Origin: Barthelona sp. PCE
Lineage: Eukaryota
Assembly: GCA_040285745.1 (NCBI GenBank)
Contig: JAUFOR010000008.1
Coordinates: forward strand, 2,108,001-2,170,504
Direction: 5' to 3'
Length of the DNA: 62,504 bases
In this document: one piece after another, positions 42,645-62,504 of the stretch
Layout of the letters: each line of letters opens with the position of its first letter
How positions within the stretch are numbered: the stretch's first letter is position 1
Program-made: the position numbers and the translations under genes
Notes under the pieces: generated by a model
The model's input: the letters and a program-made list of their open reading frames with translations, nothing else
Database searches by the model: none
What the model was told of the DNA's origin: nothing

Positions 42645-44744
42645 CTATGTTTGAATAAACATGCTGTACTCATCTATGGATGCCTCAGCAAGGAACGATG
42701 GAAGGTGGAACGTTTCCACTGTGGGATTCATCGATTCCGGGTCTTCCTCAATATTGAAAGTTTTCACCACCATTGACTTGGTTTCTTCTTCGTACAATAT
42801 ATCTTGAACAATGTTATTGGGTAAATTTGGATCGTTGTTTTGCTTCATATCATGAGAATAAGGCAAATTATTGTTCGTAAAAAAACGCGTTGTAAGTACA
42901 CCGTTATCAACAGATGCTTTAACTACACCGTTACAAACATGTATATACGAATCTCCCAGGAAATCTCGGAAAAAGTTGCCTTCCTCCGTTTCATCATATA
43001 TATAATACTGATAAAGGAGAACAGGTTCTAAGAAGCTTCCTGTTGACCAATCAAGACAATTCAAATGCTCAGATTCAAATTCTTGATCGTGTTTCTGTAT
43101 AAGAAATAGCTGATGATCAGGTGTTTCAGCCAATGGACGAGGGTTAAGGTAAACATCACATGAATATTCATGTTCAAAAACAATGTGCTTTTGAACATCC
43201 ACGTCATACCCGCTGACATTGAACCGAAAAAAATGGACTGCTTCATCACATACAATGCACGCTGAATTATCAATATGTGAACCATAAACCCCTCTGATTC
43301 TAATATTAAGGGGAAGCTCCAAAATCATCTTACTTCCCAAATACAACAAGCATGTGTCTTCATAATAGCCAGCATTGACTGGTAACCCAAGAATGAAGCC
43401 AAAGATTTCAGACCCGCAATGCGGTAAAATAATTGTGGTGTGATTGGATCCTGAACCTTTCCAGTGTATTTTGGCACATGTAATACCTGTTTCACTGCGT
43501 TGCTGAGCCATTACATAGAAATCAACTGAATCATCAAATTTTATGTTGAAATTTCCTTGATGCTTATTCACATTCTTCAGCACAATAAGCCTCCTTTCTT
43601 TGAAACAAAAGTAACTCCTTCTCACAAGATCATCATACACTTCCGCTATTCCATCAAAAAAAATTCCTGTTGGATTAAGACTTTTTAAATGCACAACCTC
43701 ATTACCAACCTCACTGAATTTGATTGGGCCATAACGTCTTCTTCTATTCGCACCAAATAAAACACAACCTTCATCATGAAAGTAACTATCGTTCAAGTCT
43801 ATATGCTTAAAATTATCACAAAGTACATTCTTAAGATTCATTTCACCTCTTGCTATCTTAAAGTCACCGCTTACGATATGAATCATTGTAAAACTTGACC
43901 CAATAAGTAACATTGACAAAACATCTTGAGTGAGCGTCAACAATGAAAAATTTTAGTTTCTGTTAATACACAATCCTTTAAGCTGTGGAAACCTTTCTGT
44001 TAAGTTAACGCGGTTCCTCTGAGTATCAAGTATCATTAGCTCATCAATTTCTTGATCGCGAAACCGGACTGAACAAATACAATCCGAGTTGTAACACCCG
44101 AAGTATTTTGAATCAATACCATGCAACTGCTCAATATCAGGTTCATGTACCTCGTCCATGTCATCTGCAGAAAAATTGTAATGCCAAATGGATTTATCTT
44201 GGCTTTTCTTTAACATAATGTAGTTTGAAAAATTCACTTCAATTGAGCTGTACTCTCCAATACATCTATGTTCCTCTGTTAGCACATTTAATATGTAGCA
44301 CTTATGAAAAAATTGCCTGTTGTTAGCGGATTCCCCAATTGTGAACAGTAGGTGTTTTTCATCAATGGGAATTATTCTGCCTAATAGCCTCCTAAAGCTG
44401 TTCATCTCAAATGGGAAGGATATTCTTCTGCTTGTATGTTCAGCACTCATGACATCATTAAATAATAAGATATCAAGATGGGTTAAACTACGATTATCAT
44501 CACAAAGCTCTTTAATTATCATATAAAATTCTCCAGCTTTTAATTTGGATGTGTACTTGAGATGCTTATATGTGTCCTCCACATACCCAACGAATTCATT
44601 GCCTTCAATACCACTTTCAATGAGATTGGTGATACTTGTTCCTCTAGAACTTAACAATCTTAGACCCTGGCCCTCAAATATCATCTGCCCCTCGGGATAT
44701 GCCCTGATGATAAGGTCGTCCTCGAACTTTCGAACCCTAGGCAT
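42645..44744 (-). pseudogene. MPRVRKFEDDL-family paralog 1, interrupted by an in-frame TAA at 43953-43955
   Basis: ORFs 43953..44744 and 42645..43943 share a frame and together align end to end with 49598..51709, which has TCA (Ser) at this codon. Confidence 0.75.
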
Positions 44745-44809
44745 ATGGATGTGGTGAGAATTCCGGAAACAATGAACAAATTTTCATAACCTCTTTCAGC
44801 TCGAAATTT

Positions 44810-46286
44810 ATGAGCAGAAATGCATCAAAAGCACGAAAAATCGCGGATATAGCCCGGGAGGCGCCCAATTGCGCTTCAAAATGCACGTTCAAACACGTTC
44901 ATATCTTGCTCTCCCCGTCTGACGGCGGTGCGTGGAAAGTTACCCTACACTCGAGCACAGGGGGCACGTTCATCGACACACAGCTCGACAACGACGTGTC
45001 ATCACTCATCAACGAAACAAATCCTGAAAAGGTCTTGATGTCGTGCGGTGACACGTACTGAGCCATCGGTATCGTCAACAATAGCAGCAGAGATAGATTG
45101 TACGAGACGCACTTTGTTACTTTCACATACAACGATGATGGTATTGAAATTCTGAACCGTGTTGTTGTTCCGGAAGTTTGCACTCACATGTGCGTGTATG
45201 ACAGGAATCTGGGCATCATCGGTGCTAACCAAAACGTCATAACCACTTACTTAGTACTTAACGACGGATCGCTCGTGAACAGAACCGAGCATCATCTTCC
45301 GTTTCCGATAACAAGTTTTTACCTTTGCCTCCACAACTGGGTGATCGCCACCAAGCATCTGCATCTGAATGAGTCTATTATCGGCCTTTACAATATAGAT
45401 TCTGGAGAGCATACGACTCTTCCGTATATTGTGACTGAGCTGGACATTTCGATCTCAGCGAGCAACAGCTATTCGTTTGATGCCTGTAACATGGCAATGC
45501 GCGATGAGATTGTGTTTGTGACGCTTTCGTTTCCAAACAAGGAGATGTACACAATGAGCACTGCCAGTGCTAACCAAAAGTACGAGACAACGGATGAATT
45601 GAGGATGAATTCCATTTCCAGTGAGGATTACCAAACGCTAACAGTCGCTGATATAATTGAACCCAGTGCACCTTCATTTGGAGGAAGCGTTTCTGTGTGC
45701 GTTGATCTGTAAGAAGCAAAAACAACCAGAAAAGTCATTGCCCTCAATAGCTGCAACAATGCATGCGGCTGCGAACCGGAAGATGGGGGAAGGTGATGGG
45801 AAGGTGCTTACCAGAGATGGCAGCTTTGAATTGATGTCCAATGACGGAAAATTGATCTTAGTTAATGATGTCACAGGAGAGAGTTTTTCAACATTAGAAG
45901 CTTATGAACAAGATGCTGCATATTTGATGAGGGTAAATGAACATTATATGGTTATTTGTGCTAGTGGTTCATTTTTAAATATTGATGATATCACAGCTGT
46001 TTGTATATATCAAATTGAAAACGGTGATTGCACAAAAGTTTGCTTGAAATATTTTGGCAGCAAGACAATTTCTGCAGAATTAAAGCACACCAACAGTTTG
46101 TTTTTGGACTTTGAAGACAAAGAAGTATGTGCAAACATAACCATGCAGGGTTTAACGGATTTGGAGTATTCTCATAAGGATATTGATAGTTGCTCTTGTA
46201 TGGATATTGTCAGTTTTAAACCCTTATTATCGCTCATTGTAGTATTTTTAGTATTTTTTATTTATCAAGCAATAAAAAAATTATGA
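44810..46286 (+). pseudogene. Interrupted gene with a C-terminal TM anchor (in-frame TGA at 45059-45061; frame change near 45.7 kb)
   Basis: ORFs 44810..45061 and 45098..45712 are in frame across one TGA. 45657..46286 overlaps in another frame and ends in a hydrophobic helix. Confidence 0.55.
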
Positions 46287-46465
46287 CACAGTAATTTGTT
46301 ATTCCCATTCTTGTTTACTTTTACCAATTGTGCTTGCGGAAATATGTTGTTAGGTGTTACCTATGATTCAGAAGTAGAAATGAATTATGCTGGATTAACA
46401 AATTTTTTGTTTCATTATAACAAGTCTTCAAAAAAAGTGTCTTTTTTTATGCTAAGGTAATGGAG

Positions 46466-48652
46466 CTATTCATTATTTGTCTGTGAATGATAGTTGGGCA
46501 TATGGTACTCAACAACGGAAGCCTCCGCCAGGAACGAAGGAAGGTGAAACCTTTCCACAGTGGGATTAGTTGATTCTGGATCTTCCTCAACGTTGTATGT
46601 TTTCAACACCATTGTCTTGGTTTCTTCTTCGTAAATAACTTCCTGAACAACGTTATTAGGCATATTTAAGCTGCGAATATCGTTGCCAATATTTGGTAAA
46701 ATAGTATTTGTATAAAATCGCATTTCAATAACACCATTAACAATGGATACCTTATTAATACCTTGATCTACTTGAATGTACGAATCACCTATGAAATTAA
46801 AGAAACAGTTACCTTCCAAGAATTCTTCATCCATTTCACCATCATCTGAATATTTATATATCAAAACGGGTTCCAAAAAATTTCCTGTTGACCAATCTAA
46901 ACAATGCAAATACTGTTCCTCACCATCATTATTGTATTTATATGTAACAAAGAGCTGGTGGTCAGCTGTATCTATTAATGGATGATGACAGTAGAATACA
47001 TTCGAAACATCATCGCCATGATGAAAAGTGATGTGCTTTTGAACCTCAACATCATTATTATTGATCAACAATTGTAAAAAATGTGTTGAATTAGTACAAC
47101 TAACACACATAGAACTTCCAGTGACTGAAGGCTTGCAATTATTTATGTACTCATTTAGAGGTAGCTCCAATACTTTTGTTTTACCAATATAACCTTGACA
47201 AACATTTTCATTATACTCAATAAAAAATGGTAACCCAAGAACTAAGCTAACATAACTCAAAAAGCCATCATTTTCAAAAGGAGTTATTATTGGTTTTGAT
47301 TCTGAACCTTCCCAGTGTATTTTAACTATTTCTGGAGCATCTGGTCTTGCATCACACTGTGCAATCATAAAGAAATGCTCTTCCTCAAATGGGTGCATCG
47401 ATAGTTCTCTGTAATTCTTTTCGAACATTAAACTATCGTTAGTCATAACGCTTTTATGTGTGACGATTCTTTTTTCTTTGAAATAAAAGTAACACTGTCT
47501 TTTCATAGTGCTGTCTGTAAAATGTGCTGTACCATCATACATAACTCTGTGAGGCCAAAAATTTTGCAATCGAATCACCTCGTTATTGACTTTTCTAAAC
47601 TTTATAGGACCAAAAACACCCGTTGCATTACAAGTTCCTAAAAACTGGCATTGTTCATTATGAAAAGAATTCGCCAAGTCAAGGTGTTTTATATTATCAA
47701 ATTGAATATATTCACTGCATAAATCACCAGTTGACGACTTAAGCTCCCCGTTTTCAATATGAACAACAGTACAAATAGAGCTATTATAGAAAAGCGCAGA
47801 AAATTCATCTTGTGTCAATGTGAACAAGGAAAAACAAGAACAGTAAGATATTTTCAACTCTAGTAACTGTGGGAATCTTTCCAATAGATCAACACGGTTT
47901 CGTTTACGGTCAAAAATGATCAATTCTTCAAATCCTCTGCCAAATAAGGCAAAACAAACACATTCAGCATTGTTACATCCTATACAGCTTTGATTATGGA
48001 CACCTTCTAGCTGTACGATATCCGGCTCATGAGCCTCGTCCATATCATCTACGCAGAAATTGTAGTGAAATATTGAAAAATCATTTTCATAATTGCTCAT
48101 CAATACATATTCAATGGAACAATTGCTGTTGGTGGAGTAATGGTAGTACTCTCCAAGGCACCTGTACTGTTCTGTTAGAATATTGAGAATGTAACAATGA
48201 GTCGATTCTCCATTCTGGTGTTCTTCATCAACCTCTGCAATAGAAAAAAAAATGTGGTTCTCATCTAATGGAACAAATTCGCTCGATACATATTTATGTA
48301 AATTATCCAAATCATCAAAAGGGAAACGAATCTTTCTGTTTGTGTGTTCATCACTGTTAATTTCGTTGAAATACAGGATTTCAAGATCAGTTAATCGATC
48401 ATTTTCGCTAAAATGCTGTTCAACAATCATATATCCTGCTCCAGCTTTTCGCTTGTAATAATACTGAAGTGATTCACACGTTTCTTCAACATATCCACAA
48501 AATTCTTCCCCATCAACAGCATCAATGAGATTGTGTAAATGAGTGTCTTCTCTAGTTTTGACCATTCTAACACCCTGACCTTCAAAAATAATTTGCCCCT
48601 CGGGATATGCCTTAATGATAAGGTCATCCTCGAATTTACGGATACGAGGCAT
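46466..48652 (-). CDS. MPRVRKFEDDL-family paralog 2 (728 aa, beta-rich, unknown function)
   Basis: Shares MPR.RKFEDDL, HYNF..DDMDE.HEPDI.QL, L.ERFPQL, L.CLDWSTG.FLEPV and FHLPSFLAEAS with its neighbours. Confidence 0.85.
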   Translation of the reverse strand: MPRIRKFEDDLIIKAYPEGQIIFEGQGVRMVKTREDTHLHNLIDAVDGEEFCGYVEETCESLQYYYKRKAGAGYMIVEQHFSENDRLTDLEILYFNEINSDEHTNRKIRFPFDDLDNLHKYVSSEFVPLDENHIFFSIAEVDEEHQNGESTHCYILNILTEQYRCLGEYYHYSTNSNCSIEYVLMSNYENDFSIFHYNFCVDDMDEAHEPDIVQLEGVHNQSCIGCNNAECVCFALFGRGFEELIIFDRKRNRVDLLERFPQLLELKISYCSCFSLFTLTQDEFSALFYNSSICTVVHIENGELKSSTGDLCSEYIQFDNIKHLDLANSFHNEQCQFLGTCNATGVFGPIKFRKVNNEVIRLQNFWPHRVMYDGTAHFTDSTMKRQCYFYFKEKRIVTHKSVMTNDSLMFEKNYRELSMHPFEEEHFFMIAQCDARPDAPEIVKIHWEGSESKPIITPFENDGFLSYVSLVLGLPFFIEYNENVCQGYIGKTKVLELPLNEYINNCKPSVTGSSMCVSCTNSTHFLQLLINNNDVEVQKHITFHHGDDVSNVFYCHHPLIDTADHQLFVTYKYNNDGEEQYLHCLDWSTGNFLEPVLIYKYSDDGEMDEEFLEGNCFFNFIGDSYIQVDQGINKVSIVNGVIEMRFYTNTILPNIGNDIRSLNMPNNVVQEVIYEEETKTMVLKTYNVEEDPESTNPTVERFHLPSFLAEASVVEYHMPNYHSQTNNE

Positions 48653-49597
48653 ATAAAAGTAGTTTGCCGTGATGAAACAAGTGTAAAAAGAGATAGCAGT
48701 TTTGATTACTTACACTGTGAAGATTTAAAGATTCAATTTTATTGTAAAGCTTGACCCCTGATCCTTTATGGACGATAGGGATCAATTATCATTAACTACT
48801 GCTCAGATAATAATGATTATTGAACTTCTTATTGCTATTTTAGGTATTTTATTTTTTAGAAAAATAATCAATGTTTCGGAGACATTTTTTCAAAAGTAAT
48901 CTCTACAGTGTATTTAGGAGAACTAAAATTATCATGTTCACGTATCTAGTATATCATGAATATGTGACCAGAGACGGTCTTTATGTATTTCATTTTAGAA
49001 TGTTATCATTCCTTTAAGCATCAACCACCGGTTTGATGTTCAGTAAGTCCATGGTACAAATAAGAATAAAAATAATACAGGCTGGCTTACCATACATGCG
49101 TTTGTTTCCACCAAATAACTATCAATATTTAAAGCGGAAAAAATGTTAAATTCGAATAAAAAACGTTCAGGCACTATTACATGTTCAGAAAACGCAGAGC
49201 ATGATTCCTTGTAAACAAGAAAGAGAAACTTAAAAAAATAAATGCCCTCATCGTTCAAGTCTTCTGTTGCCATATATAAGAAATTCAATAGTTAACATGG
49301 TATCCAATTGAAGTCGAAAAGTTCTACGTCATCGTTTCTTGATAACATAATATTTTCAAAATACATTAAAAAATAATGTGCAAAAGTAAAGAATGAAAAA
49401 AATTATAAAAAAAAATCCCAAAGCGCCCTTTTTATCTTGATTATAGAATTTTCATAAAAACATCTTTCAGAACTCACAATAACCTCATAAGGGAATAACA
49501 TAGAACACACCAATTTTAAAAATCACAATTATTTTGTTTAGTAAAGAATGTTTGTTGGACACCAGTCTGAATATTTGTTCATCTGATTTTCAGTCTA

Positions 49598-51709
49598 TCA
49601 ACAACATTGTTCATGATAATCGGGCATGTGATACTCAAAGATGGACGCCTCGGCCAGGAACGATGGAAGGTGGAACCTTTCCACTGTGGGATTGATCGAT
49701 TCCGGGTCTTCCTCAATATTGTAAGTTTTCAACAACATTGTTTTGGTCTCCACTTCGTATGACATGTCTTGAACAGTGTTATTGGGCAGATTTGGATCGT
49801 TGCTTATCTTCATGTTAGAAGAATATGGTAAATTGTCGTTTGTGTAAAAATGCGTTTCAATTGCACCATCTTCAACGTATACTTTAATGATACCACCCCT
49901 CACCTGTATGTATGAATCACTCACGAAATTACGGAAACTGTGGCCTTCCTCCGCTTCATCAAACATATCATACTGATAAAGGTGAACAGGCTCTAAGAAG
50001 CTTCCTGTTGACCAATCAAGACAATGCAAATATTCCGCTTCAAGACCTTCATCATCTTCCCGTACAACAAATAGCTGATGATCAGGTGTTTCATTCAATG
50101 GACCAGGGTTAAAGTAAACATCCTCCACAGATCTATGTTCAGAAACAATGTGCTTTTGAACCTCCACATCATACCCGTTGACATTGAGCTGAAAAAAATG
50201 GATTGAATTTCTACACAGAATGCACGCTGAATTATCAAAATGTGAACCATGAACTCTTCTAACTTTCACATTCGGTGGAAGTTCCAAAATCAGCTTTTTT
50301 CCCAAATACACCGAGAGTGCATCATCTTCACGATAGTCAACATTTAAGGGCAACCCAAGAATAAAACCATAATTTTTAAAGCCGCAATGAGGTAAAATGG
50401 TTGTGATAGGTTTGGATTCTGACCAGTGCCAGTGAATTTTGACATATGTATTAGTTTCACCACGGTCCTCTGCCATTACAAAAAAATCACCTGCTTCATT
50501 TGGATGAACTGATAAGATCTTGTACCTCGTACGTGAAAATGGTTTCTTATACCCACGCAGCACAATAAACTTCCTTTCTTTAAAAAAAAAGTAATATCTT
50601 ATGAAAGAGTCATCATACACTTCAGCTATTCCATCAAAAAATATTTTCTTTGATTTAAGTCTTTTCAAACGCATCACCTCATTATCAACTGTTCTGAATT
50701 TGATTGGGCCATAACATTTTGTAATTTTATCAGCACCAAAAAAAACACAATCTTCATCACGAAAGGAATTATCGTTCAAATCTATATGCTTCCAGCCATC
50801 GCAAATTACGTTCTTAAAATTCAGTTTACCCTCTGACATCTTCAATTCACCGTTTTCGATATGAACCATTGTGAATCTTGATCCAATGAATACCATTGAC
50901 AAAACATCTTGAGTGAGCGTTAATAATGCAATTTTTGAGTTTTTCTTAATATACAATCCTTTAAGCTGCGGAAACCTTTCTGTCAAGTTAACTTGGTTCC
51001 TTTGACTGTCAAATATTACCAATTCACCATATCTATGAACTGAAAAAATGCAATCCGAGTTTAAGCACCCGAAGTATCTTGAATCAATACCATACAACTG
51101 CTCAATATCAGGTTCATGTACCTCGTCCATGTCATCTGCAGAAAAATTGTAATGCCATGTGGTATCATCTTGGTATTTCTTTAACAAAATGTAGTTTGAA
51201 TTAATGGTTGGTTGAGAGTCATAATCTCCAAGACATCTATATTCCTCCGTTTGCACATTTAATATGTAGCACTGTATCACTTGCCTGTTATTAACGGTAT
51301 CACTAATGGTGAATAGTAGGTGGTTTTCATCCATCGGAAATATTCTGCTAATTTGAAACCTTCCTATGTTGTCAAAAGGGAAGGGTATTCTCCTTCTTGT
51401 ATGTTCATCGCTCATGATATCACTAAACAATAAAATATCAAGATGGGTTAAAATACCACTGTCGTCAAAAAACTTTTCGATGATCATGTAAGATTCTCCA
51501 GCTTTTAATTTGGATGTGTACTGAAGAGGCTTACGCGTATCCTCCACATACCCAACAAAGTCCTTGTCTTCAATAGCGCTTTCAATGAGGCTGATTTCGG
51601 TGATTTCTCTTGACTTAATCAATGCTACGCCCTCTCCCTCAAATATCAGCTGCCCCTCGGGATATGCCTTCATTACAAGGTCATCCTCGAATTTACGAAC
51701 CCTGGGCAT
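49598..51709 (-). CDS. MPRVRKFEDDL-family paralog 3 (703 aa, beta-rich, unknown function)
   Basis: Same family motifs; closest to paralog 1. Confidence 0.85.
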   Translation of the reverse strand: MPRVRKFEDDLVMKAYPEGQLIFEGEGVALIKSREITEISLIESAIEDKDFVGYVEDTRKPLQYTSKLKAGESYMIIEKFFDDSGILTHLDILLFSDIMSDEHTRRRIPFPFDNIGRFQISRIFPMDENHLLFTISDTVNNRQVIQCYILNVQTEEYRCLGDYDSQPTINSNYILLKKYQDDTTWHYNFSADDMDEVHEPDIEQLYGIDSRYFGCLNSDCIFSVHRYGELVIFDSQRNQVNLTERFPQLKGLYIKKNSKIALLTLTQDVLSMVFIGSRFTMVHIENGELKMSEGKLNFKNVICDGWKHIDLNDNSFRDEDCVFFGADKITKCYGPIKFRTVDNEVMRLKRLKSKKIFFDGIAEVYDDSFIRYYFFFKERKFIVLRGYKKPFSRTRYKILSVHPNEAGDFFVMAEDRGETNTYVKIHWHWSESKPITTILPHCGFKNYGFILGLPLNVDYREDDALSVYLGKKLILELPPNVKVRRVHGSHFDNSACILCRNSIHFFQLNVNGYDVEVQKHIVSEHRSVEDVYFNPGPLNETPDHQLFVVREDDEGLEAEYLHCLDWSTGSFLEPVHLYQYDMFDEAEEGHSFRNFVSDSYIQVRGGIIKVYVEDGAIETHFYTNDNLPYSSNMKISNDPNLPNNTVQDMSYEVETKTMLLKTYNIEEDPESINPTVERFHLPSFLAEASIFEYHMPDYHEQCC

Positions 51710-51772
51710 ATATAGCTGTAATGAAGTAGGTGAATATTAAGATAGCTTGCATATATTAAATATTAGTGCTTG

Positions 51773-51926
51773 CACGTGGCATATAAAGATGATATAATAC
51801 ACGTGAAGCGTAAACAGAAAGCGCGAATGTGAAACAGGACTGCATTCGAATTTCTATCCCCTCACAGATTTATTGATGTGGTTCGCAGGGCTTGTAGCAC
51901 GTGGCACGTAAGATTGTTGGCACGTG
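51773..51926. promoter_or_regulatory. Cluster of four CACGTG (E-box/G-box) palindromes
   Basis: CACGTG at 51773, 51800, 51898 and 51921, 64-217 bp upstream of the paralog 3 ATG. Function is inferred only. Confidence 0.4.
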
Positions 51927-53359
51927 AGGGCATTGGCTTGGTTGTGGGGCACTTTTTTGCTGCGTTGTGGGTACGGCTCGCGCCTTTTGGGATGTGCTTC
52001 ATTGTACACGCATAAGCATTCAGTAAGCACCGCTGCATGCGTCACTGGATGCTAGACTGCGCCAAAACTTCTGTTTCCAAATTTTCAGCCTAATTCTCAT
52101 CAGATTTTCCTGATTCACACGATGCCAACCGTAAAGCGTGAATGTGAGGACGACGATATCGACGTTCAAACGTCTTTTGAGTTTGTGCTGGATTGAACCA
52201 CTGTTTTGGTGGCATTACGAAAGTCATGATGCCAATCTTGTCGCCAACGATTCCAATTTTGGTGACATATAGGAAGAGATCCGGTTGCTGACAGGATGTT
52301 CGACTGATGTATGTTTGTTGAAAGAGACGAAGGTTTGAAAATTGAATAATAAGAGGGAGAATCGAAATTCTTTTTTTTATCCAAGGTATCGTTACAAATG
52401 GATATATGATATGGGTGCTTCATAAGAATATTGTACAACTGCATATGCTTACAAATCACTAATTTTCAGATTTGTATTTAATCACTCAGTCAGAGAATGT
52501 TGTTTTTAATGTTTTCTATTTCTTTATATTAGGAATTGAGATATTGAGATATTCCATATGTTTTTGCAGTATCCCAGTGACACAATGCCTCTCATCATTG
52601 ATTGGCATCATCATGGACAGTGAATATTGAGAATAACTTGATGGCAATTATGAATATGCACTGCAGCAGAGTAGAATCAACGTTTGCTGAGATCATAGCG
52701 TTGGTACAGCGTGACCCCAGCGTTGTCTTATATCGATAATAAATTCGTGAATAATGAGTTTTAAACTTTTTTGAAAACAGAAATGAAAGCATTCTTTTGT
52801 CGTGACTGGTTGGAGCAGCATTTTGAATTTTTTTGAGTGAGCATGTTACCGTGTTGTGTATGCGTTTATCCGTTGTAAGCCTGGCATAACTCGGTGCATA
52901 CAGAGATACAGTTGCAGGTTCATGCATGCGGCATCTCTGGCTATTTGAATGTGTTGTGCAATTGGATGGTATGTGCTTATAAGTGGTGCAGCTCTGGTAT
53001 AGCAATAAATTTGAGCTCAAAAAAAGAAAAAAATGTTGCACGCACCTGTAATGCTCTGTGCATATTTCCGTCGTGATGGGGTTGATATATATGATATGTA
53101 TTGCAGTATGTTGCAGGACTGCGAGTGGAATCTTAATGGAATAAAAGATACGTTTTTTCTCGGCGCTGCGTGGCTATTTTTTCATTTCAATCAAGTTTAG
53201 TGTTAGTATATGTGCTTCTTATGCGTGGAGACCAATTTTGATTGAGAGCGCGAATTCTTAAGAGGAGAAATGAGCTCTTAGAAATTCCCAACTAGAAAGT
53301 TACCCCTAATAAGTCTGCTAATAAAATGAGAGAAATGCTACCGTGGAAATTTGGTTTTG

Positions 53360-53767
53360 CTGATATTTTTATTAGTATTTAGTGTGAGTTGAGTTTTGGA
53401 AACTATTAACACGATATATCATAGATGTGATATATACAATAGACATTATCAAATTCAAACTGTAATATATGATTTTATAAGGAATGAACCTTATTCTGAT
53501 TTCACTAACATAATATATTAGCAATTCTTTTAGATATTCGCGTGGAATTTAGTATTTACTAATATTTGTGTTTGTGAACTTTTTGAGTTCGCATCACTAT
53601 TGTTAAGATTTTTTTGTGATGCCCAACTTTTGGAATTCACTAATATCATTATTAGCAATTCGCTGAAAGTGAGCACGAGCGAATTTTTTTATTAGGCGCT
53701 AATGAATTATATTAGGGAGAAAATGAATAATTGGCGAGAAATCTCCGTTTACTAACATTATTATTAC
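53360..53767. repeat. Degenerate AT-rich dyad repeats CTAA-N8/9-TTAG with short inverted repeats
   Basis: Exact units at 53505, 53640 and 53699; one-mismatch units at 53360 and 53752. Inverted repeats GCATCAC/GTGATGC (53591-53622) and AATTCGCT/AGCGAATT (53657-53685). Confidence 0.5.
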
Positions 53768-53904
53768 TTATATTTTTGAAATGGTCAAAACAAATCAAAC
53801 TCCGCCGAAACGCGCGTAGAGTAGTAAATAGTTTATTAGTTTTCGAGCAAGCTGTCCCGGATTCTCGTATGTACTGTTCCTTGGTCTTCTGCTAACTGTT
53901 AGTA

Positions 53905-56900
53905 TCAGACTCTACGCCTGCTCCTTGCTGCCCTCATAATGTTCTTCATAGCATAAGCGTGAAAAGCAAATAGATGGTAGCTAAGACCTTTTTTAAGTTT
54001 CGTTCCACTGGTCTTAATTGATTGCGACGTTGATCTCTCGTTCAACGACTCGAGCACCTGTTCCCACGACGTGTAAGCTAGCTCGAAATTGTATTTCTCG
54101 CGTGCCTTCGACGTCGGTTCCCACAACATCGGATCCCAAATGGCTCCTCCGTGCGCAACGGCCATAATCTTGACCGGCGGGTCATCAAAGTTTTGTACTT
54201 ATTTAGCTTCTTGTAAAAATAGGCTGCACGTACGTGACCTCGATCTTTGCTCGTGAACGGCGATGTAGTCATAACATCCACCACAACCTTGGGTCCGCTT
54301 GCTTCCAGTATTGCAAAATCTGGTCGCTTACGTTCTTTCCGATTGGGGCACGACTCACCACTTTCGTACCGTTCATGTGTCCAACCCAATTGTACACGAT
54401 GTATGTCACTGTACTCCTCAAACTTTCTTTTAGGAATTGGCTTATCCAAGTTGAAAATATGAGCATTTCCTGATTTTCGAACAGTATCAACTGTTTTCTC
54501 AAGAATGTTGTTGTGCAGTTTGACGACAAGACCGTGATTTTTTGAACAAGAATAATGATGACTTCTTCTGTCCAAAACCTTCTCTCCACAGAAGTTGCAC
54601 CGCCCAGAGGCGTACATTTCGCGAAGTTCAGGGAACAACAATTGGTATATACCGGCTAAAGCATAACCAAACATGTAACGCTCATCAAACATTGAATGAA
54701 TATTGGCAACTGACCTTTGGGGCCATGTGGCGACGGTAGCATCGAGTGACCAGGCAACAGAACGCTGAGACATCAAGGCGTCTCGGGATATAAATGATTC
54801 TGGATGGAAACGACAATGTTTGATCGCATAATCAAACAATTCGAAAAAACGTTTTGTGAGAATGTTTTGTAGTTTGCTTTTTTGACGCACAATATTAGTA
54901 GCCATACTGATCTCAACATCGTACGACTCCATCTGAGTGTGCTGCCCATAGTTTACGGCAAGCCACAGTAAATTTGAAGCAAATTCATGCTTTGTTTCAC
55001 TGTTAAGAGAAACTGCTTCCACAAGTTTGTGTTGGCAATCCTCATCTTGGTAATGAGCATCCGGCATAAAGTAGGGTTTGTTATCTTTGTCATAGTTGAA
55101 TCTAGCTGCGGCCAAATAACGTGGGCTAAGCCTAGTGAAATCCGACCACTCAATCAAATTGAAACGCTTGATTGAGCTACTTACCGAAGCGGTACTTGCC
55201 AAGTCAGCTATTTTGTGGAGAAACACAAAGTCTAGACAACCAGTCCCACCAAGAGACAAAGGATAACGGAGAGTTGGAGCTTCATCGATCGATAACTCAT
55301 CGGCTCCAGGAATCATCTCAAGAAGTAAATTCTGTTTGATGGTCCTTTCCATATCATCAACTGCATCTTCAGTGAGAGTCACCGAGCGTACGTGATGAAT
55401 GAGCATCTGATCAATCGACATAGAAGCAAGATACTTGAACAAAGCTGTCCCTGGACTTATATACTCGAGAAGTTGTTTGACGCCATTGCTAAATCTTGCG
55501 CATGCATGACTAACATTAAAGTCGCCAATCTGAGTACCTAACAATTGATAAAAAGCTAAGCTTAAGTTGTGGGTAGCGATGTTCTCTTGCTCTTCACCTC
55601 TTGGAAATATCCTTGAAGCGAAAGCAATACTCCCGGCTCCATACCCCACCAGCTCACACTTCTCAGCGTTCACTTTCAGGTTATAGAACTCGAGCTTACC
55701 CTTGATTACATCAAAGGTTGACATGACAGTTGATGGTTCACCAACAATATAAATATCGTCAGCATACGCGTACATATTGACTGAATCTGGGGCTACGGCT
55801 TTCGTATCCTTCAAAACTTCAGCAATAAGAAGAGCAAACAACAACGGAGACGTTGCGTTACCCTGTAACACGCCCATACAACTATCAAAAGGAAGGCGCT
55901 CTCCATTCGACCAAATCGGAATTGGCCTTTTGCACATCTGATGATATGCTTGGAAGCACCAAGGAGCATGTGCAGCGACAATATGCAGCAGCTTGTCACG
56001 ACGAACGCTGTTGAAGGCGTTAGCAATGTCAATAACAAGAGCAACATTACGATCACTTCGCTTTAGATTAACATCCACGAGGTTTGCGACCAGAGCAGTA
56101 GCATCCCGCATCCCAGCACCGAATTGTTTGTGTTTAAACAAGTACTTTTTGACACGTTCAGACTGAAACTTCAGATCTTGACTCGCGATGATCTTATCAG
56201 CGATACCACCGAGTGCAGAGGCAACTGCGATGGGGCGTACAGGCATATGCTCACCCTCTTGAAGCTCCTCCACATGCTTTTTGTTAAGAGCAATTAGTCG
56301 GATATTCCAAAGGGCCCACGGGCGCGATCCGAACGCATAATCATTGATAACTTGAGTAAAAGCATCCATGTAGCGATCGTTACGATAGATTTCAGCCACA
56401 AATAACTTAAGTAAATATGGCATCACTCCATCGGCACCGGCAGAAATGTACTTTTTGACTTTTTTGGTGGTCTCATACACCATATCTTTCGATATTATGA
56501 ATTCCTCAGGGTCCCACTCACCTCTCTTGAAAGAACTCATGGTTTCGCGCAGAATCGCATCAGAAACTGGTGCACTGACTGGATGCTTTGATTGCATCTG
56601 TTCCAGCACGTTAGTATCTGATAAAGGCATGGTACCTTGACTCTTTGCTAGCCTTATGGCCTTTCCTGGTTGGTTGGCGTCTGCGTACTTCTTCATACGA
56701 AGGCTTACAGACTCCCTAGACTCAACGGATGGCTGATTGGAACGTTGCCTCGGCGTCTTACCAAAACATAGCGCAGAAGCTGCAACTATTAGAGCCTCGC
56801 CTATACATCGTTGAGACTCACGTAATGGAGTATTCCGTATTAACAAACCAATCTTCAGGACACAGAAATATAGCTTTCTTGATTTCTTATCACCAATTAA

Positions 56901-58760
56901 ATTATCTTGGTTCTCGATAACTTTCTGAAAAACAAACTCATTAAAAACTTCTAGAGCATCGTCTTTGTCTAGGTCTGGTCGTAAAGAATGTAGAGCCAGG
57001 ACCCCGGACAATTTGTTGACAAACTCCTTGATTCTCACAAGTGTTTCAATATTACCGCTCTGCCACTGAGGCAATCGCGGTGGATTAGCGCAATAAGCGC
57101 CCAGAAGTTCTCCAAAGAAATCTTCAGCAACTCTTCTCTCAGCAATTTCGCTATTACCGTCAGTTGCACAAAGTCGATTGAATCGGACCAGCGGGTCGTA
57201 CAGTAAAATGGGGAAAGTGTATTCCATACGAGAACTTGAAACTGGGTATGTAACATTGCTCATAATAGGAGGAGCTTGGTTGGTAACACTGCTCGTAACA
57301 GGAATTGAAGGCGTCGGGTTAGTATCTACCGGGTCAACATCCAATGTATGTGACTGTGACTGGTTCCGGTTAACCAATGCTGGCGCTCCAACTTCTTGGA
57401 AGACAGGATCATGCGATTCTGGATCACTTTCCACCTTAAAAATATGACTGAGTAGAGGAATCATTCTACTACTAAAACATGGGAAGAGACGGTACAATTT
57501 TCTACTTCCATTGAATTCCAAACAGGCCTTGATAAACGCAAACATCACGAAATAGAAATTATCCGTGAACGGTTCTACATTCTGCCAATGATAAACATTC
57601 TGGCCACGCGAGTCCATTCTGAATTTCATACAAGACACACTTCTAACGAAATTGATTGCTGCCGGATGTAAAATCCTGCAACGCTCATCTTCCTTTTCCT
57701 CAGAAGCGACACTCCTTATAGTGTCATCCAAATGTGTGAATCTCTCGTCTCCAAACTTCTCATTGATAGCATGTACAATCTCGTTTGCATCAACACCAGT
57801 GCTGCATACTTTCAGGATAGCATGTGCAATAACGAGTTGTCCTCGTGTACCTGGGCTTGAAAGACGTACACCAACGGTTTCCATCTTCTCACCTTCAATA
57901 CTGCGTAAAGACAACCAATCTGCGTCAGTGCACAAGCCACTCCACTGATCATGAACATTTTGTCGAATTATTTCTATGGACGGGGCTCTCCTGTTGTTTG
58001 AAGAAACTTTCGTCCTTTGAATTATTGACAACATCTGCTCACCGAACTCTGTTAGTTGGTACTTGACATCTTCCTTAAAATACATAATTGTTTGCAAAGG
58101 ACTATGTGGCGTAGTATCACTTGGATTGGCTAACATTGTTTCGAGTTCCTCATATACCCTCTCTATTTCTGGATCGGTTACATAAGCTGCAGGAGGAGTC
58201 CTAGATACTTCTTGCTCTTCATACAAATAATAATCATCATCATAAGTCCACTCTGGAAGTGGGGGAGGTGAGTCTACAGTATCTGAAAATGTATCTGATA
58301 ATGTATTGTGAAGAGAAAGGGTCACAAGGTTGAGCTGTGACTGTCGGTAGAGATATTCTACCACACTATTTGTCAGTTTTAGCGACAGAACACGACACAG
58401 TTGCAAAACGCACGAAACCATGAAAATAGCGTCGTGGCATGCATATAATGATAACACAGTGTCGTGGGGGACAGCTTGGGCCCGTGTGCGGGGCATAATG
58501 ATCGAATGAAGTGATGTTAAAAATCGTGAACTCCATAAGCTACCACAAATCATATTTTGGAAAAATAAATTCTGAAGTTTGCAGTAGGCACACTCTGAGT
58601 AGAGCTTGTGGACAAGTATCTTGACAAAACCGGCATAACGTGACCCAAATTTACCAAAGTCTTCATCTACCTTACGCAGGCATATGGGCTCAAATGGCGT
58701 ATATTGGTGGTCGTAGAGTACGTGGGGCGCCCCAGAGGACCTGTTACTGCTCGGAATCAT
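53905..58760 (-). CDS. Retrotransposon polyprotein: reverse transcriptase, CCHC knuckle and PD-(D/E)xK endonuclease (one frame break at ~54191)
   Basis: RPIAV, QFGAG, DIANAFNSVRR, GVLQGNATSPLLF, YADD, LKVNAEKC, PLSLGGTG, CNFC...H..SC, HN, RPDF...DVMTTSP...KLNKY. One extra A at 54191-54194 joins ORF 53905..54165 (KIMAVAHGGAIW). The start could instead be MPRTR at 58496. Confidence 0.93.
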
Positions 58761-59489
58761 CGAAAAATAGCGGCGAAACGGCTTGAAATTGATTGAAAAT
58801 TGTAAAGCGAGATGGCATGATTATAAAGATGTCTCATGCCCGCAGGGGGACCCATGGGATAAAACACTCTAACAAAGCTTGACGTAGTGTCTTGCCATGG
58901 CTGAAATCTGCTGTAAAACAACAAAATCCCCGCATCATGCATCTGCAACAAAAATTCCCTGCTTGAATACGTCGAAAGCGCCTCTTGAGGAGGGCCAGGA
59001 CATGGAAATAGCGAAAGAACCATCACTGTAGAAGTTTTGGAATTTGAATTTTGTTCAAAGTTGTTTGGGCGTTTCTGTGCTTGTAAAAGCGCGTCTACGC
59101 ACCCGATACATGCTGATCTGCTGGGTCTAACCCCTTTAGAATCGTTCTGCATCACAACTAAAAACGTTTTCTTCATATTCACTATTTGTGCCCATTTTTT
59201 CGTATTCAGCGATCGTAACGACACCAAAACGACGTCCTCCGAGTTTGAAATAGCTGCACTTCCATCACAACACGAGTCTTTTTTTTTCTCAAAACTAACA
59301 CCATTTTCGGCGTTTCCAGTAGTCTGAACGGGTTCAGGGCTGCCTTCTACGCGTGTTCCATGTATCCCATCAGGTCTAAAACCTTCTTGGTCCATATTCT
59401 GCAAATAGTCTCGTTTATGATCAAATAATATGACAGGCGATGCGATTTTCATGTTACTGCTCGGAATCATCGAATAGCGGCGAAAACGG
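58742..59489. repeat. ~40-bp direct repeat pair (58742-58781 and 59452-59489)
   Basis: TGTTACTGCTCGGAATCATCGAA(AAA)TAGCGGCGAAA(A)CGG occurs twice, 710 bp apart. Confidence 0.9.
58757..59470 (-). CDS. Putative upstream ORF of the retroelement (237 aa), overlapping the RT ORF through ATGA
   Basis: Open 237 codons. Its TGA overlaps the ATG of the RT ORF, and both ORFs begin MIPSSN. No family recognised. Confidence 0.4.
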   Translation of the reverse strand: MIPSSNMKIASPVILFDHKRDYLQNMDQEGFRPDGIHGTRVEGSPEPVQTTGNAENGVSFEKKKDSCCDGSAAISNSEDVVLVSLRSLNTKKWAQIVNMKKTFLVVMQNDSKGVRPSRSACIGCVDALLQAQKRPNNFEQNSNSKTSTVMVLSLFPCPGPPQEALSTYSSREFLLQMHDAGILLFYSRFQPWQDTTSSFVRVFYPMGPPAGMRHLYNHAISLYNFQSISSRFAAIFR

Positions 59490-62394
59490 TAGGGCCAGTT
59501 TGCTGGTTTTCGAGTGCCGCACCCGCTGGCGTACTGTTCCTGGTCTTCGCTAACTGTTAGTATCGCAGACTCTACGCCTGCCCTGCCGCCTCATAATGTT
59601 CTTTCCAGAATAAGCGCAGTGCCAAATAGATGGTAAAGCAGACCTTTTTTAAGTTTCGTTCCACTGGCCTTAATTGATTGCGATTGCCGATCTCTCGTTC
59701 AACGACTCGAGCACCTGTTCCCCACGACGTAAGCTAGCCCGAAATCAGGTATTTCCCCGCGTGCCTCGACGTGTCGAGCCCTTGCCAACATCGGATCCCA
59801 GCAAAATGGTTCTCCGCGCGCAACGGCTGGCTAAGTCTTGACCGGCGGCCTTCCAGTCAAAGTGGTAATTATTTAGCTTCTGTAAAAATAGGCTGCACGT
59901 ACGTGACCCTGATCTTTGCCTCGTGAACGGCGATGTAGTCATAACATCCACACCACAACCTTTGGGTCCGCTTTGTTTGTGTATTGCAAAAATCTGCGCT
60001 TACGTTCTTCCGGATTGGGCACGCTCACCCTTTTCGTACCGTTCATGTGTCCAACCCAATTGTACACGATGTATGTCCTGTACTCCTCAAACTTTCTTTT
60101 AGGAATTGGCTTATCCAAGTTGAAAAATATGAGCATTTCCTGATTTCGAACAGTATCAACTGTTTTCTCAAGAATGTTGTTGTGCAGGTTTGACGATCAG
60201 ACCGTGATTTTTTGAACAAGAATAATGATGACTTCTTCTGTCCAAAACCTTCTCTCCACAGAAGTTGCACTGCCCAGAGGCGTACATTTCTGCGAAGTTC
60301 AGGGAACAACAATTGGTATATACCGGCTAAAGCATAACCAAACATGTAAAGTGATCAAACATTGAATGAATATTGGCAACTATTTGGGGCCATGTGGCGA
60401 CGGTAGCATCGAGTGACCAGGCAACAGAACGCGGACATCAAGGGCGTCTCGGGATATAAATGATTCTGGATGGAACGACAATGTTTGATCGCATAATCAA
60501 ACAATTGAGACGTTTTGTGAGAATGTTTTGTAGTTTGCTGACGCACTATATTAGTGCAGCCATACTGATCTCAACATCATACGACTCCATCTTGAGTGTT
60601 ACGTCATAGTTTTCACGGCAAACTACAGTAAATTTGAAGCAAAATTCATGCTTTGTTTCACTGTTAAGAGAAACTGCTTCCACCGTTTGTATGTTTGGCA
60701 ACTCTCATTCCTGGTAATGAGCATCCGGCATAAAAGTAGGGTTTGTTATCTTTGTCATAGTTGAATCTAGCTGCGCAAAATAACGTGGGCTGTTTTGAGT
60801 GAAATCCGACCACTCGATCAAATTGAAACGCTTGATTGAGCTTTACTGAAGCGGTACTTGCTAAGTCAGCTATTTTGTGGGAGAAACACTAGTCCCAGAC
60901 AGCCAGTCCCACCAAGAGACAAAGGATAACGGAAGTTGAGCTTTCATCGATCGATAACTCATCACTCCAGGAATCATCTCAAGAAGTAAAATTCTGTTTG
61001 ATGGTCCTTTCCATATCATCAACTGCATCTTCAGTGAGAGAGCGCACCGAGCGTGCGTGATGAATGAGCATCAGATCAATCGACATAGGTAAACGTATGA
61101 TCGCGGGAACAAAGCTGTCCCTGGACTTATATACTCGAGAAGTTGTTTGACGCCATTGCTGGGACGTCTGCGCATGCATGACTAACATTACAGTCCGCCA
61201 ATCTGAGTACCTAACAGTTGATATAAAGCCAGCTTAAGTTGTGGTAAGCGATGTTCCTCTTGCTCTTCACCTCTTGGAAATATCCTTGAAGCAGCAATAC
61301 TCGGCTCCATACCCCACCAGCTCACACTTCTACGCAGCATTCTGTTCTCTAGGTTGTCATAGAACTCGAGCTACCCTTGACCACATCAAAAGGCTGGCGC
61401 ATGCAGTTGATGGTTCACCAACAATAAGTAACATATCGTCAGCATACGCGTACATATTCCAGTGACTGAATCTGGGGCTACGGCTTTCGCATCCTTCAAC
61501 ACTTCAGCAATGAGAAGAGCAAACAACAACGAGACGCCAGTTAGTCTGCAAACTACGCCCATACAACTAAGTCAAAAGGAAGGCGCTCTCCGCATTCGAT
61601 TCTAAATCGGAATTCGGCCTTTTGGCACATCTTGATGATATGCTTTGGAAGCACCAAAGGCAGCATGCATGACAGCGACAAATGCTTTGGCTTGTCACGA
61701 CGAACGCTGTTGAAGGCGCGAAGTCAAATGTCAATAACAAGAACAACATTACGATCGCTTTCTAGCTTTTAGATTGACATCCAACGAGGTTTGCGACCAG
61801 AGCAGTAGCATCCCGCAATTCCAGCACCGAATTGTTTGTGTTTAAACAAGTGCGCTTTGACACGTTCAGACTGAAACTTCAGATCTTGACTCGCGATGAT
61901 CTTATCAGCGATACCACTGGAGTGCAGAGTGCAAACTCAGCGATGGGGCGTGCTGAGGCGACATGCGTTCGTCACCTCTTGAAGCTCCTCATGCTTTTGT
62001 TAAGAGCGACTAGTCGGATATTCAGAAAAGGTGCCCACGCGCGATCCAGAACGCATAATCATTGGATAAATTTGCAGTAAAAGCATCCATGTAGCGATCG
62101 TTACGATAGATTTCAGCCACAAATAACGAGCAAATATGGCATCACTCCATCGGCACCGGCGAAAATGTGACTCTTTTGACTGCGGTCTCTCACACCGCTA
62201 TCTTTCCCTGATGTGCCCAGATTCCTCAGGTCCTGCTCACCTCTCTTGAAAGGAACTCGTTGGTTTTCAGCTGGGAATCGCATCGAAACTGGTGCACTGA
62301 CGATGCGCTTTGATTGCATCTGTTCCAGCACGCTAGTATCTGATAAAGGCATGGTACCTTGACTCTTTGCTAGCCTTATGGCCTCGGGTTGGCT
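59481..62394 (-). mobile_element. Copy 2 of the same retrotransposon, head-to-tail, 5'-truncated and indel-rich
   Basis: Colinear with ~53806-56660 (e.g. GTACTGTTCC at 59531 vs 53871; ATAAAGGCATGGTACCTTGACTCTTTGCTAGCCTTATGGCC at 62343 vs 56621), with dense small indels. Confidence 0.9.
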
Positions 62395-62504
62395 GGTCTA
62401 TGGTGGTCTGGCATGGCTCCAATGGTCTATATGGTCTATATGGTCTATGGGCGGTCTATGGTCTATATGGTCTAAGTGGTCTGTTATGGTCCAGTATTCA
62501 TATG
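62395..62504 (+). repeat. Terminal tandem repeat, consensus GGTCTATAT (candidate telomere)
   Basis: About 11 imperfect units, including three exact GGTCTATAT and several GGTCTAT, running to the window end. Confidence 0.65.

What the first reader, a model, noticed from the sequence alone, without database searches (positions are those of the whole stretch)
62370..62504. Candidate non-canonical 9-mer telomere repeat (GGTCTATAT)n added at a microhomology
Seen: the repeat starts where homology to the element fades, just after TATGGCC, which differs by one base from the repeat's TATGGTC. It continues to the last base. Inference: de novo telomere healing of a truncated element, using a repeat unlike TTAGGG or TAGGG (only GG, and containing C). 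The tract is short and noisy.
Basis: partly seen in the sequence, partly recalled or inferred. Interest (0 to 1): 0.75.

Follow-up and report, generated by a model that had tools for sequence, protein, structure and literature searches.

The report
Odd telomere capping a retrotransposon array
This is the already-published unusual telomere repeat of the anaerobic flagellate Barthelona sp. PCE, which here reads as a 9-base unit and caps a cut-off copy in a head-to-tail row of retrotransposons, an arrangement like the chromosome ends of Giardia.

Summary
The repeat is real, but it is already in print. A window kinesin is 100% identical to an NCBI protein of Barthelona sp. PCE. Its genome paper reports apparent telomeres 5'-TATATGGTCT-3' on two contigs.

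Additions here:
(1) The unit reads as 9 bases; the published string is one unit plus one letter (log-likelihood -96 against -116 for a 10-mer).
(2) About 12 noisy units cap a 5'-truncated copy of an RT + restriction-like-endonuclease retrotransposon. It lies head-to-tail behind a second copy, 5' ends outward, as described for Giardia GilM/GilT. No telomeric repeat lies between the copies.
(3) The junction lies near 62392-62397, not at TATGGCC. The 3-4 base microhomology is within chance.

The noise looks like unpolished nanopore sequence. Not shown: the repeat in accurate reads, TERT, or the element's restriction to chromosome ends. Best reading: telomerase capped an eroded or incompletely reverse-transcribed element. 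The scan noted a similar Giardia case on other DNA (unchecked).

The parts
62392..62504 (+). Telomere-like tract, about 12 noisy units of GGTCTATAT, running to the last base; start uncertain by about 6 nt (62392-62397)
   Evidence: same motif published for this organism
59489..62396 (-). Copy 2: 3' half of the retrotransposon, truncated at its 5' side just upstream of the RT domain; error-ridden
   Evidence: 87% identical to 53871-56677; 126 mismatches and 155 indel events, 101 of them 1 nt; mismatches even over codon positions, 31/37/29
59452..59488 (-). About 37-nt motif, distal copy; abuts the 3' end of copy 2; begins with the CGTTT(T)CG(C/G)CG core
58779..59451 (-). About 670-nt 5' segment of the repeated unit, with an open frame of about 238 codons and no Pfam hit
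   Evidence: covered at 99%+ by short contigs; a noisy gene model elsewhere runs from an element's C-terminus into this segment (P0138)
58742..58780 (-). About 37-nt motif, proximal copy, at the start of the long ORF
53905..58820 (-). Copy 1 ORF: N-terminal region without Pfam hit, RT (RVT_1), then CCHC knuckle and LHN / RPD / DV motifs of a restriction-like endonuclease. The assembly has a one-base frame slip near 54190; other copies read on to a stop at about 53905
   Evidence: (E 7e-19); the motif assignment to a restriction-like endonuclease is recalled knowledge
53803..53904 (-). Short 3' UTR (about 80-95 nt) and innermost junction of copy 1, which abuts a variant of the same CGTTT(T)CG(C/G)CG core; no telomeric repeat
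   Evidence: short contigs begin at 53825 and 53834

Best explanation
This is a true chromosome end of Barthelona sp. PCE. The chromosome ends in a head-to-tail array of a multi-copy non-LTR retrotransposon (single long ORF, RT plus restriction-like endonuclease) with 5' ends pointing outward. The outermost copy lacks its 5' half and carries the organism's telomere repeat, (GGTCTATAT)n on the strand that runs towards the end. Shown: the anatomy, the period, the junction zone, several copies in the assembly. Inferred: (a) the irregularity is mostly sequencing error in an unpolished contig tip, perhaps with real 7-base variants; (b) the repeat was added by a telomerase with a divergent template; (c) the free 3' end arose either by erosion or breakage inside the array, or as the end of an unfinished cDNA. 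The element's cDNA is the + strand growing towards the tip, the same strand and polarity that telomerase extends; (d) new copies may insert at a short motif carried in the element's own 5' region, so that the array grows outward without targeting telomeric repeats.
For: Organism: 100% match to PCE1_003549 on a 2,170,504-bp contig; 2,170,504 minus the window length is exactly 34 x 62,000, which fits the window being that contig's last tile (assumes a 62-kb step; inference). The motif is published at one end of two contigs (PMC11316075). Period 9: the published 10 letters occur 3 times, overlapping by one base, and the 10-mer tandem junction 0 times; simulated 10-mer arrays never favoured the 9-mer (0 of 60). 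TTAGGG and TAGGG fit worse than random sequence at the measured error rate. Noise: indel-dominated and codon-neutral differences in copy 2; the assembly is R9.5 / Albacore nanopore with later correction. 17 of 17 contigs laid from two public runs match at 99%+, and the 16 listed lie on copy 1 or its 5' segment (one study, possibly not independent of the assembly). Gene models of the same element sit on contigs of four lengths: 2,170,504; 2,128,580; 766,953; 134,457. Same orientation and truncation as described for Giardia elements. The core motif lies at both 3' junctions and at the ORF start, with 1 other match in the window.
Against: One short tract in one noisy tip. It fits a perfect 9-mer worse than 148 of 150 simulations at copy-2 error rate, and an alternating 9+7 unit fits as well (-95 against -96), so the true array may be irregular. 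No TERT or telomerase RNA could be tested. Only two of eight contigs are reported to carry the repeat, and the paper calls them apparent telomeres without experiment. Positions of the other element copies are unknown. The junction microhomology is not significant. The self-targeting idea rests on three sites in one noisy array.
Confidence: 0.65

Rival explanations
1. Basecalling artefact: the chromosome end is real, but the true repeat has another sequence that the nanopore basecaller misread as GGTCTATAT.
For: Telomere repeats are known to be miscalled in nanopore data (abstract of 10.1101/2022.01.11.475254). The tip is unpolished-looking and the tract is noisier than the adjacent DNA.
Against: The miscalls named in that abstract keep period 6 and are other words. 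In the same study a related flagellate gave canonical TTAGGG with the same basecaller, though on another flow cell and kit. The motif is reported on two contigs.
Confidence: 0.1
2. Not a telomere: an internal minisatellite or a chimeric read tip at which the assembly happens to stop.
For: The tract is only about 110 nt. The same 9-mer forms arrays in unrelated metagenome contigs (7 loci), so the word alone does not mark a telomere.
Against: Strand polarity fits a telomere (G 0.30, C 0.16 towards the end). It cuts an element in mid-ORF, as terminal copies are described to be cut in Giardia. Two contig ends are reported. No array of it elsewhere in the 62-kb window.
Confidence: 0.1
3. The element targets the telomeric repeat itself (SART/TRAS/MoTeR/FoTeR type); the distal repeats are the old telomere and the truncation is an ordinary 5'-truncated insertion.
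For: Same orientation as MoTeR and FoTeR, in which truncated copies outnumber full ones (PMC12857005 passages).
Against: Those elements keep telomeric repeats at the 3' junction. Neither 3' junction here has any; the longest match to the repeat in 53800-62385 is 7 nt.
Confidence: 0.06
4. Telomerase-independent ends: the repeat is kept by recombination between ends or copied by the element's own RT, and the retrotransposon array does most of the end extension.
For: The repeat is G-poor and far from the TTAGGG of a sister lineage. The genome is strongly reduced (10.2 Mb). The element appears intact and in near-identical copies.
Against: The element carries no copy of the repeat that could serve as template. 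A short repeat joined directly to a mid-ORF break is what telomerase healing gives (established knowledge). Giardia has both such arrays and active telomerase.
Confidence: 0.09

Closest known systems
Barthelona sp. PCE telomere repeat 5'-TATATGGTCT-3' (Williams et al. 2024, PMC11316075)
   Same: Same organism, same motif, contig-terminal position.
   Different: Printed as 10 letters; this tract has period 9. The main text has no mention of retrotransposons (0 hits).
Giardia GilM / GilT subtelomeric non-LTR arrays (Arkhipova and Morrison 2001, seen only through reviews PMC5537684, PMC10999387, PMC10088271)
   Same: Head-to-tail arrays between subtelomere and telomeric repeats, one orientation with reverse transcription towards the end, 5'-truncated copies; similar unit length (GilM 5,474 bp; here about 5.65 kb).
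   Different: Repeat is a 9-mer, not TAGGG. The 3' UTR is about 80-95 nt, whereas Gil elements are described with unusually long 3' UTRs. No Giardia-named protein among the hits. No G-tract bias on the outward strand (36 GGG against 35 CCC runs).
MoTeR1 (Magnaporthe) and FoTeR (Fusarium) telomere-targeted RT+REL retrotransposons
   Same: RT plus restriction-like endonuclease, 5' end towards the terminus, many truncated copies.
   Different: They insert into telomeric repeats and keep them at the 3' junction; this element does not.
Other divergent telomere motifs: nematode TTAGGC / TTAGAC, Galdieria TTTATT(T)AGGG, many fungal motifs
   Same: Lineage-specific departure from TTAGGG, including C-containing, GG-only and 10-11-base units.
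   Different: Unrelated lineages and sequences.

Membership tests
Telomerase-made telomeric repeat | Short tandem repeat at the very end of the sequence | tested here: met
Telomerase-made telomeric repeat | G-richer strand runs 5' to 3' towards the end | tested here: met
   tract G 0.30, C 0.16, T 0.37
Telomerase-made telomeric repeat | Present at several chromosome ends | not testable with these tools
   no whole genome held; paper reports two of eight contigs
Telomerase-made telomeric repeat | Present in accurate reads | tested here: inconclusive
   only assembled contigs were on offer; see Tried and rejected
Telomerase-made telomeric repeat | TERT and a template RNA matching the unit; BAL31 sensitivity | not testable with these tools
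GilM/GilT-type telomeric retrotransposon | Non-LTR RT with C-terminal restriction-like endonuclease, no APE domain | tested here: met
   RVT_1 is the only Pfam hit; CCHC, LHN, RPD, DV motifs in the translation; motif meaning recalled
GilM/GilT-type telomeric retrotransposon | Head-to-tail array, 5' ends towards the terminus, terminal copy truncated and capped by telomeric repeat | tested here: met
   one array only, with a hint of a second (P0138)
GilM/GilT-type telomeric retrotransposon | Unusually long 3' UTR | tested here: not met
   stop at about 53905, 3' end at about 53812-53825; feature taken
GilM/GilT-type telomeric retrotransposon | Copies confined to subtelomeres | not testable with these tools
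   copies on contigs of four lengths, positions unknown; cluster look-up could not be made
GilM/GilT-type telomeric retrotransposon | RT groups with GilM/GilT in a tree | not tested
   no protein named as GilM or GilT was returned (the library holds no names), so no tree was built
SART/TRAS/MoTeR/FoTeR (insertion into telomeric repeats) | Telomeric repeats at the 3' junction or between copies | tested here: not met
CRE clade of non-LTR retrotransposons | RT-REL signature and grouping with CRE elements | tested here: inconclusive
   nearest relatives are 23-37% identical over local matches and mostly unnamed; none of the 36 hits scanned has an APE domain; the consensus looks CRE-like from recall only

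The most novel reading that the evidence does not exclude
Barthelona sp. PCE keeps its chromosome ends mainly with a self-targeting RT+REL retrotransposon that inserts at a motif in its own 5' region and so extends arrays outward. Unfinished cDNA ends are capped with a G-poor 9-base repeat by a strongly altered telomerase, or by a telomerase-free route. In the sister group of Fornicata this would be either an independent origin of Giardia-like ends or a trace of a shared ancestral state.
Probability: 0.12. Interest if true: 0.75.

Novelty: new member of a known kind. Interest (0 to 1): 0.38.

Why it matters
The repeat itself was published in 2024 and left unexplained. If the reading here holds, it fixes the unit at 9 bases, which gives a precise query for the telomerase RNA template and for k-mer tests. 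It also adds a free-living metamonad to the short list of eukaryotes whose telomeres cap oriented retrotransposon arrays, which bears on whether the Giardia arrangement is ancestral or convergent. It is not a new kind of system.

Tried and rejected
Whole genome: none held, so other contig ends and TERT could not be examined. Cluster look-up of the element's copies could not be made.

Public runs: only assembled contigs, 3 runs of one study, kind guessed; no RNA holder listed. X1 laid 8 contigs, X2 9, X3 0. None covered 52700-53824, copy 2 or the tract, and the only loose end was 10 letters unlike the repeat. This lack of cover is no evidence either way: contigs drop rare variants, and a 9-base array collapses in such assemblies. 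Depth falls from the 3' to the 5' part of the element, but depth of contigs is no copy number, so it is not used.

Metagenome scan for three perfect units: 7 loci. None of 7 shows a clean array running to a contig end in telomere orientation; L003 has 15 units at an end but with the opposite strand outward. Not support.

Rfam: 0 hits at gathering score in the window; 2 chance-level hits in 51700-62504. No tRNA. Three junction stretches fold no better than shuffles, so no ribozyme lead. ESM Atlas gave only scores under 0.8 for the 238-codon frame and the N-terminal 561 aa: no information. PDB: three weak RT matches only.

Rejected unit models: 10-mer, 11-mer, two 8-mers, TTAGGG, TAGGG; the 7-mer is weaker; 9+7 alternation is not rejected. 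Rejected: TATGGCC as junction. Locus-tag numbers were considered as a guide to the positions of copies and dropped, because they could not be shown to follow position. Arkhipova and Morrison 2001 is not held. The scan holds no notes on this genome.

Full report
1. Observation. The last 110 or so bases are a noisy period-9 array. TRF reports 62422-62491, period 9, 7.7 copies, 70% matches. GGTCTATAT occurs 3 times in the window, all in the tract, and its complement 0 times. The longest perfect run is 27 nt; outside the tract the best match to the array is 9 nt on one strand and 11 nt on the other. In a pair-HMM with doubled error rates the tract scores -92.3, while 297 other tiles score -172.4 on average (sd 5.7, best -153.8). 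An alignment to a perfect array uses about 12 units. The observation of a repeat therefore stands.

2. Junction. BLASTN of the two element copies runs on to 62396. A model that switches from the intact copy to the repeat puts 0.98-0.99 of the posterior on intact-copy positions 56672-56682 and 0.0003-0.001 on or before TATGGCC, at two error rates. The overlap at the likely site is TGG or TGGT. A 3-nt overlap with some phase of the repeat occurs at 12% of element positions and within 48% of 6-nt stretches; for 4 nt, 3% and 13%. Microhomology-guided addition is possible but unsupported.

3. Organism and prior report. A kinesin fragment from 10801-12450 is 100% identical over the query to NCBI protein PCE1_003549 of Barthelona sp. 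PCE, on a 2,170,504-bp contig. That length minus 62,504 is 34 x 62,000, which fits the window being the last tile of that contig; this assumes a tiling step that I was not told. Williams et al. 2024 (PMC11316075; I saw abstract, passages, section 17, a search of the supplements, and parts 2 and 3 of 6 of the peer-review file) state that two of the eight contigs have apparent telomeres at one end with the repeat 5'-TATATGGTCT-3', significance unknown, while Skoliomonas sp. GEMRC has TTAGGG. The repeat is thus already known.

4. Unit length. The published 10 letters occur 3 times in the tract, two of them overlapping by one base, and the junction that a true 10-mer array would form occurs 0 times. 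Log-likelihoods: 9-mer -96.1, 10-mer -116.2, 7-mer -103.4, alternating 9+7 -95.4, TTAGGG -176.7, TAGGG -185.3, random -145.6; the 9-mer and 9+7 units lead at all 5 error rates tried. Of 60 simulated 10-mer arrays none favoured the 9-mer. Against my reading: only 2 of 150 simulated perfect 9-mer arrays scored as poorly as the real tract, so either the error is higher here or the array is irregular.

5. The capped element. Copy 1 (about 53812-58780, minus strand) holds a 1580-codon frame with RVT_1 as its only Pfam hit (E 7e-19), followed by a CCHC knuckle and LHN, RPD and DV motifs, which I read from recall as a restriction-like endonuclease. Copy 2 (59531-62396) is its 3' half, in the same orientation, 87% identical. 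The differences are 126 mismatches and 155 indel events, 101 of one base, and mismatches fall evenly on codon positions (31/37/29). That is the profile of raw nanopore error or of neutral decay; the assembly came from R9.5 reads called with Albacore 2.1.3, so error is the likelier. Contigs of two public runs match at 99%+ (8 of 8 and 9 of 9 laid; the third run laid none); the 16 listed lie within 53825-59474, and both runs show one extra base at 54190, where the assembly's frame slips. These runs belong to one study and may not be independent of the assembly. Other gene models read through that point to a stop near 53905 (P0291, P0122), so intact copies probably exist. Named models of the element lie on contigs of 2,170,504 (two), 2,128,580 (two), 766,953 and 134,457 bp, in clusters of up to 6 members. 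Five further fragments are noisy and are not this window's copy 2. One of them, P0138, runs from an element's C-terminus into the 5' segment, a hint of another head-to-tail array. Their positions are unknown.

6. Junctions between copies. No telomeric repeat lies between or inside the copies (longest match 7 nt). A motif of about 37 nt occurs twice, 710 nt apart, at 59452-59485 and 58742-58778. Its core, CGTTT(T)CG(C/G)CG, also stands at the innermost 3' junction (53812); only 1 other match exists in the window. It may be a target site that the element carries in its own 5' region, or simply the element's own end. Three sites in one noisy array do not decide this.

7. Mechanism. Shown: an oriented array whose outermost copy is cut in mid-ORF and joined to the repeat. 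Inferred: a telomerase with a divergent template added the repeat to a free 3' end. That end could come from erosion or breakage, or from unfinished reverse transcription, because the cDNA of a minus-strand element is the plus strand growing towards the tip. The data do not separate these routes. Overall confidence 0.65. Rivals: miscalled repeat 0.10, internal satellite or chimeric tip 0.10, telomerase-free maintenance 0.09, insertion into the repeat 0.06.

8. Comparison. It works like the Giardia ends: GilM and GilT lie in head-to-tail arrays between subtelomere and telomeric repeats, oriented so that reverse transcription runs towards the end, some with 5' truncations (passages of PMC5537684, PMC10999387, PMC10088271, PMC7000408; the original paper was not held). 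It is not filed as a member of those families: the 3' UTR is short, no Giardia-named protein was among the hits, and no tree was built. It differs from MoTeR and FoTeR, which keep telomeric repeats at the 3' junction (passages of PMC12857005). Divergent telomere motifs are common across eukaryotes (passages of PMC3622300; abstract of PMC10760449). Nanopore miscalls of telomeres are documented (abstract of 10.1101/2022.01.11.475254).

9. What is not in print, as far as searched. One work holds both 'Barthelona' and 'telomer'; 24 papers hold 'Barthelona' (19 listed, listing only); the motif search listed 30 of 92 papers, none on this organism by title or abstract. 'Retrotranspos' has 0 hits in the main text of the genome paper and in 5 of its 6 held supplements; the sixth is a scan, and the main supplementary PDF was too large to read and may bear on this. 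Most subscription journals are not searched.

10. Verdict. The headline (a non-canonical telomere repeat) is real and already reported. The 9-base period and the Giardia-like retrotransposon array beneath it appear to be unreported additions of a known kind. The specific microhomology claim fails. Interest 0.38.

Noticed in passing
window 59452-59488, 58742-58780, 53803-53812 (minus strand): A 37-nt motif twice in the element's 5' region; its core also marks the innermost 3' junction. Candidate target site for self-insertion.
   Followed up: partly
window 58760-59473 (minus strand): Open frame of about 238 codons upstream of the RT frame, starting with the same few residues because of the motif; no Pfam or Atlas assignment.
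   Followed up: partly
window 42645-51736 (minus strand): Three related genes or gene remnants of about 700-750 codons in tandem, proximal to the array; the two intact ones have no Pfam hit. Possibly a subtelomeric gene family.
   Followed up: no
window 58076-58496 against P0121: 16 of 22 amino-acid differences between copy 1 and another copy fall in the first 140 residues, which suggests mosaic 5' ends or recombination among copies.
   Followed up: no
runs X1 and X2: Runs under two different organism labels of one study both hold the element at 99%+. Cross-contamination between libraries is the simplest reading; not tested.
   Followed up: no
L003 3001-3139; L002 2832-3397: AT-rich metagenome contigs (GC 0.24) carry the same 9-mer as a perfect or degenerate array at a contig end, beside genes that look viral to me (recalled impression, not searched). 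Unrelated to this telomere.
   Followed up: partly
window 51737-53802: About 2 kb of gene-poor, partly AT-rich DNA separates the last gene from the array; no Rfam hit.
   Followed up: partly
P0294 (Eukaryota sp. TZLM1-RC): A distant RT of the same broad type, 26% identical, on a 1.2-Mb contig of another anaerobic flagellate assembly; its position is unknown.
   Followed up: no
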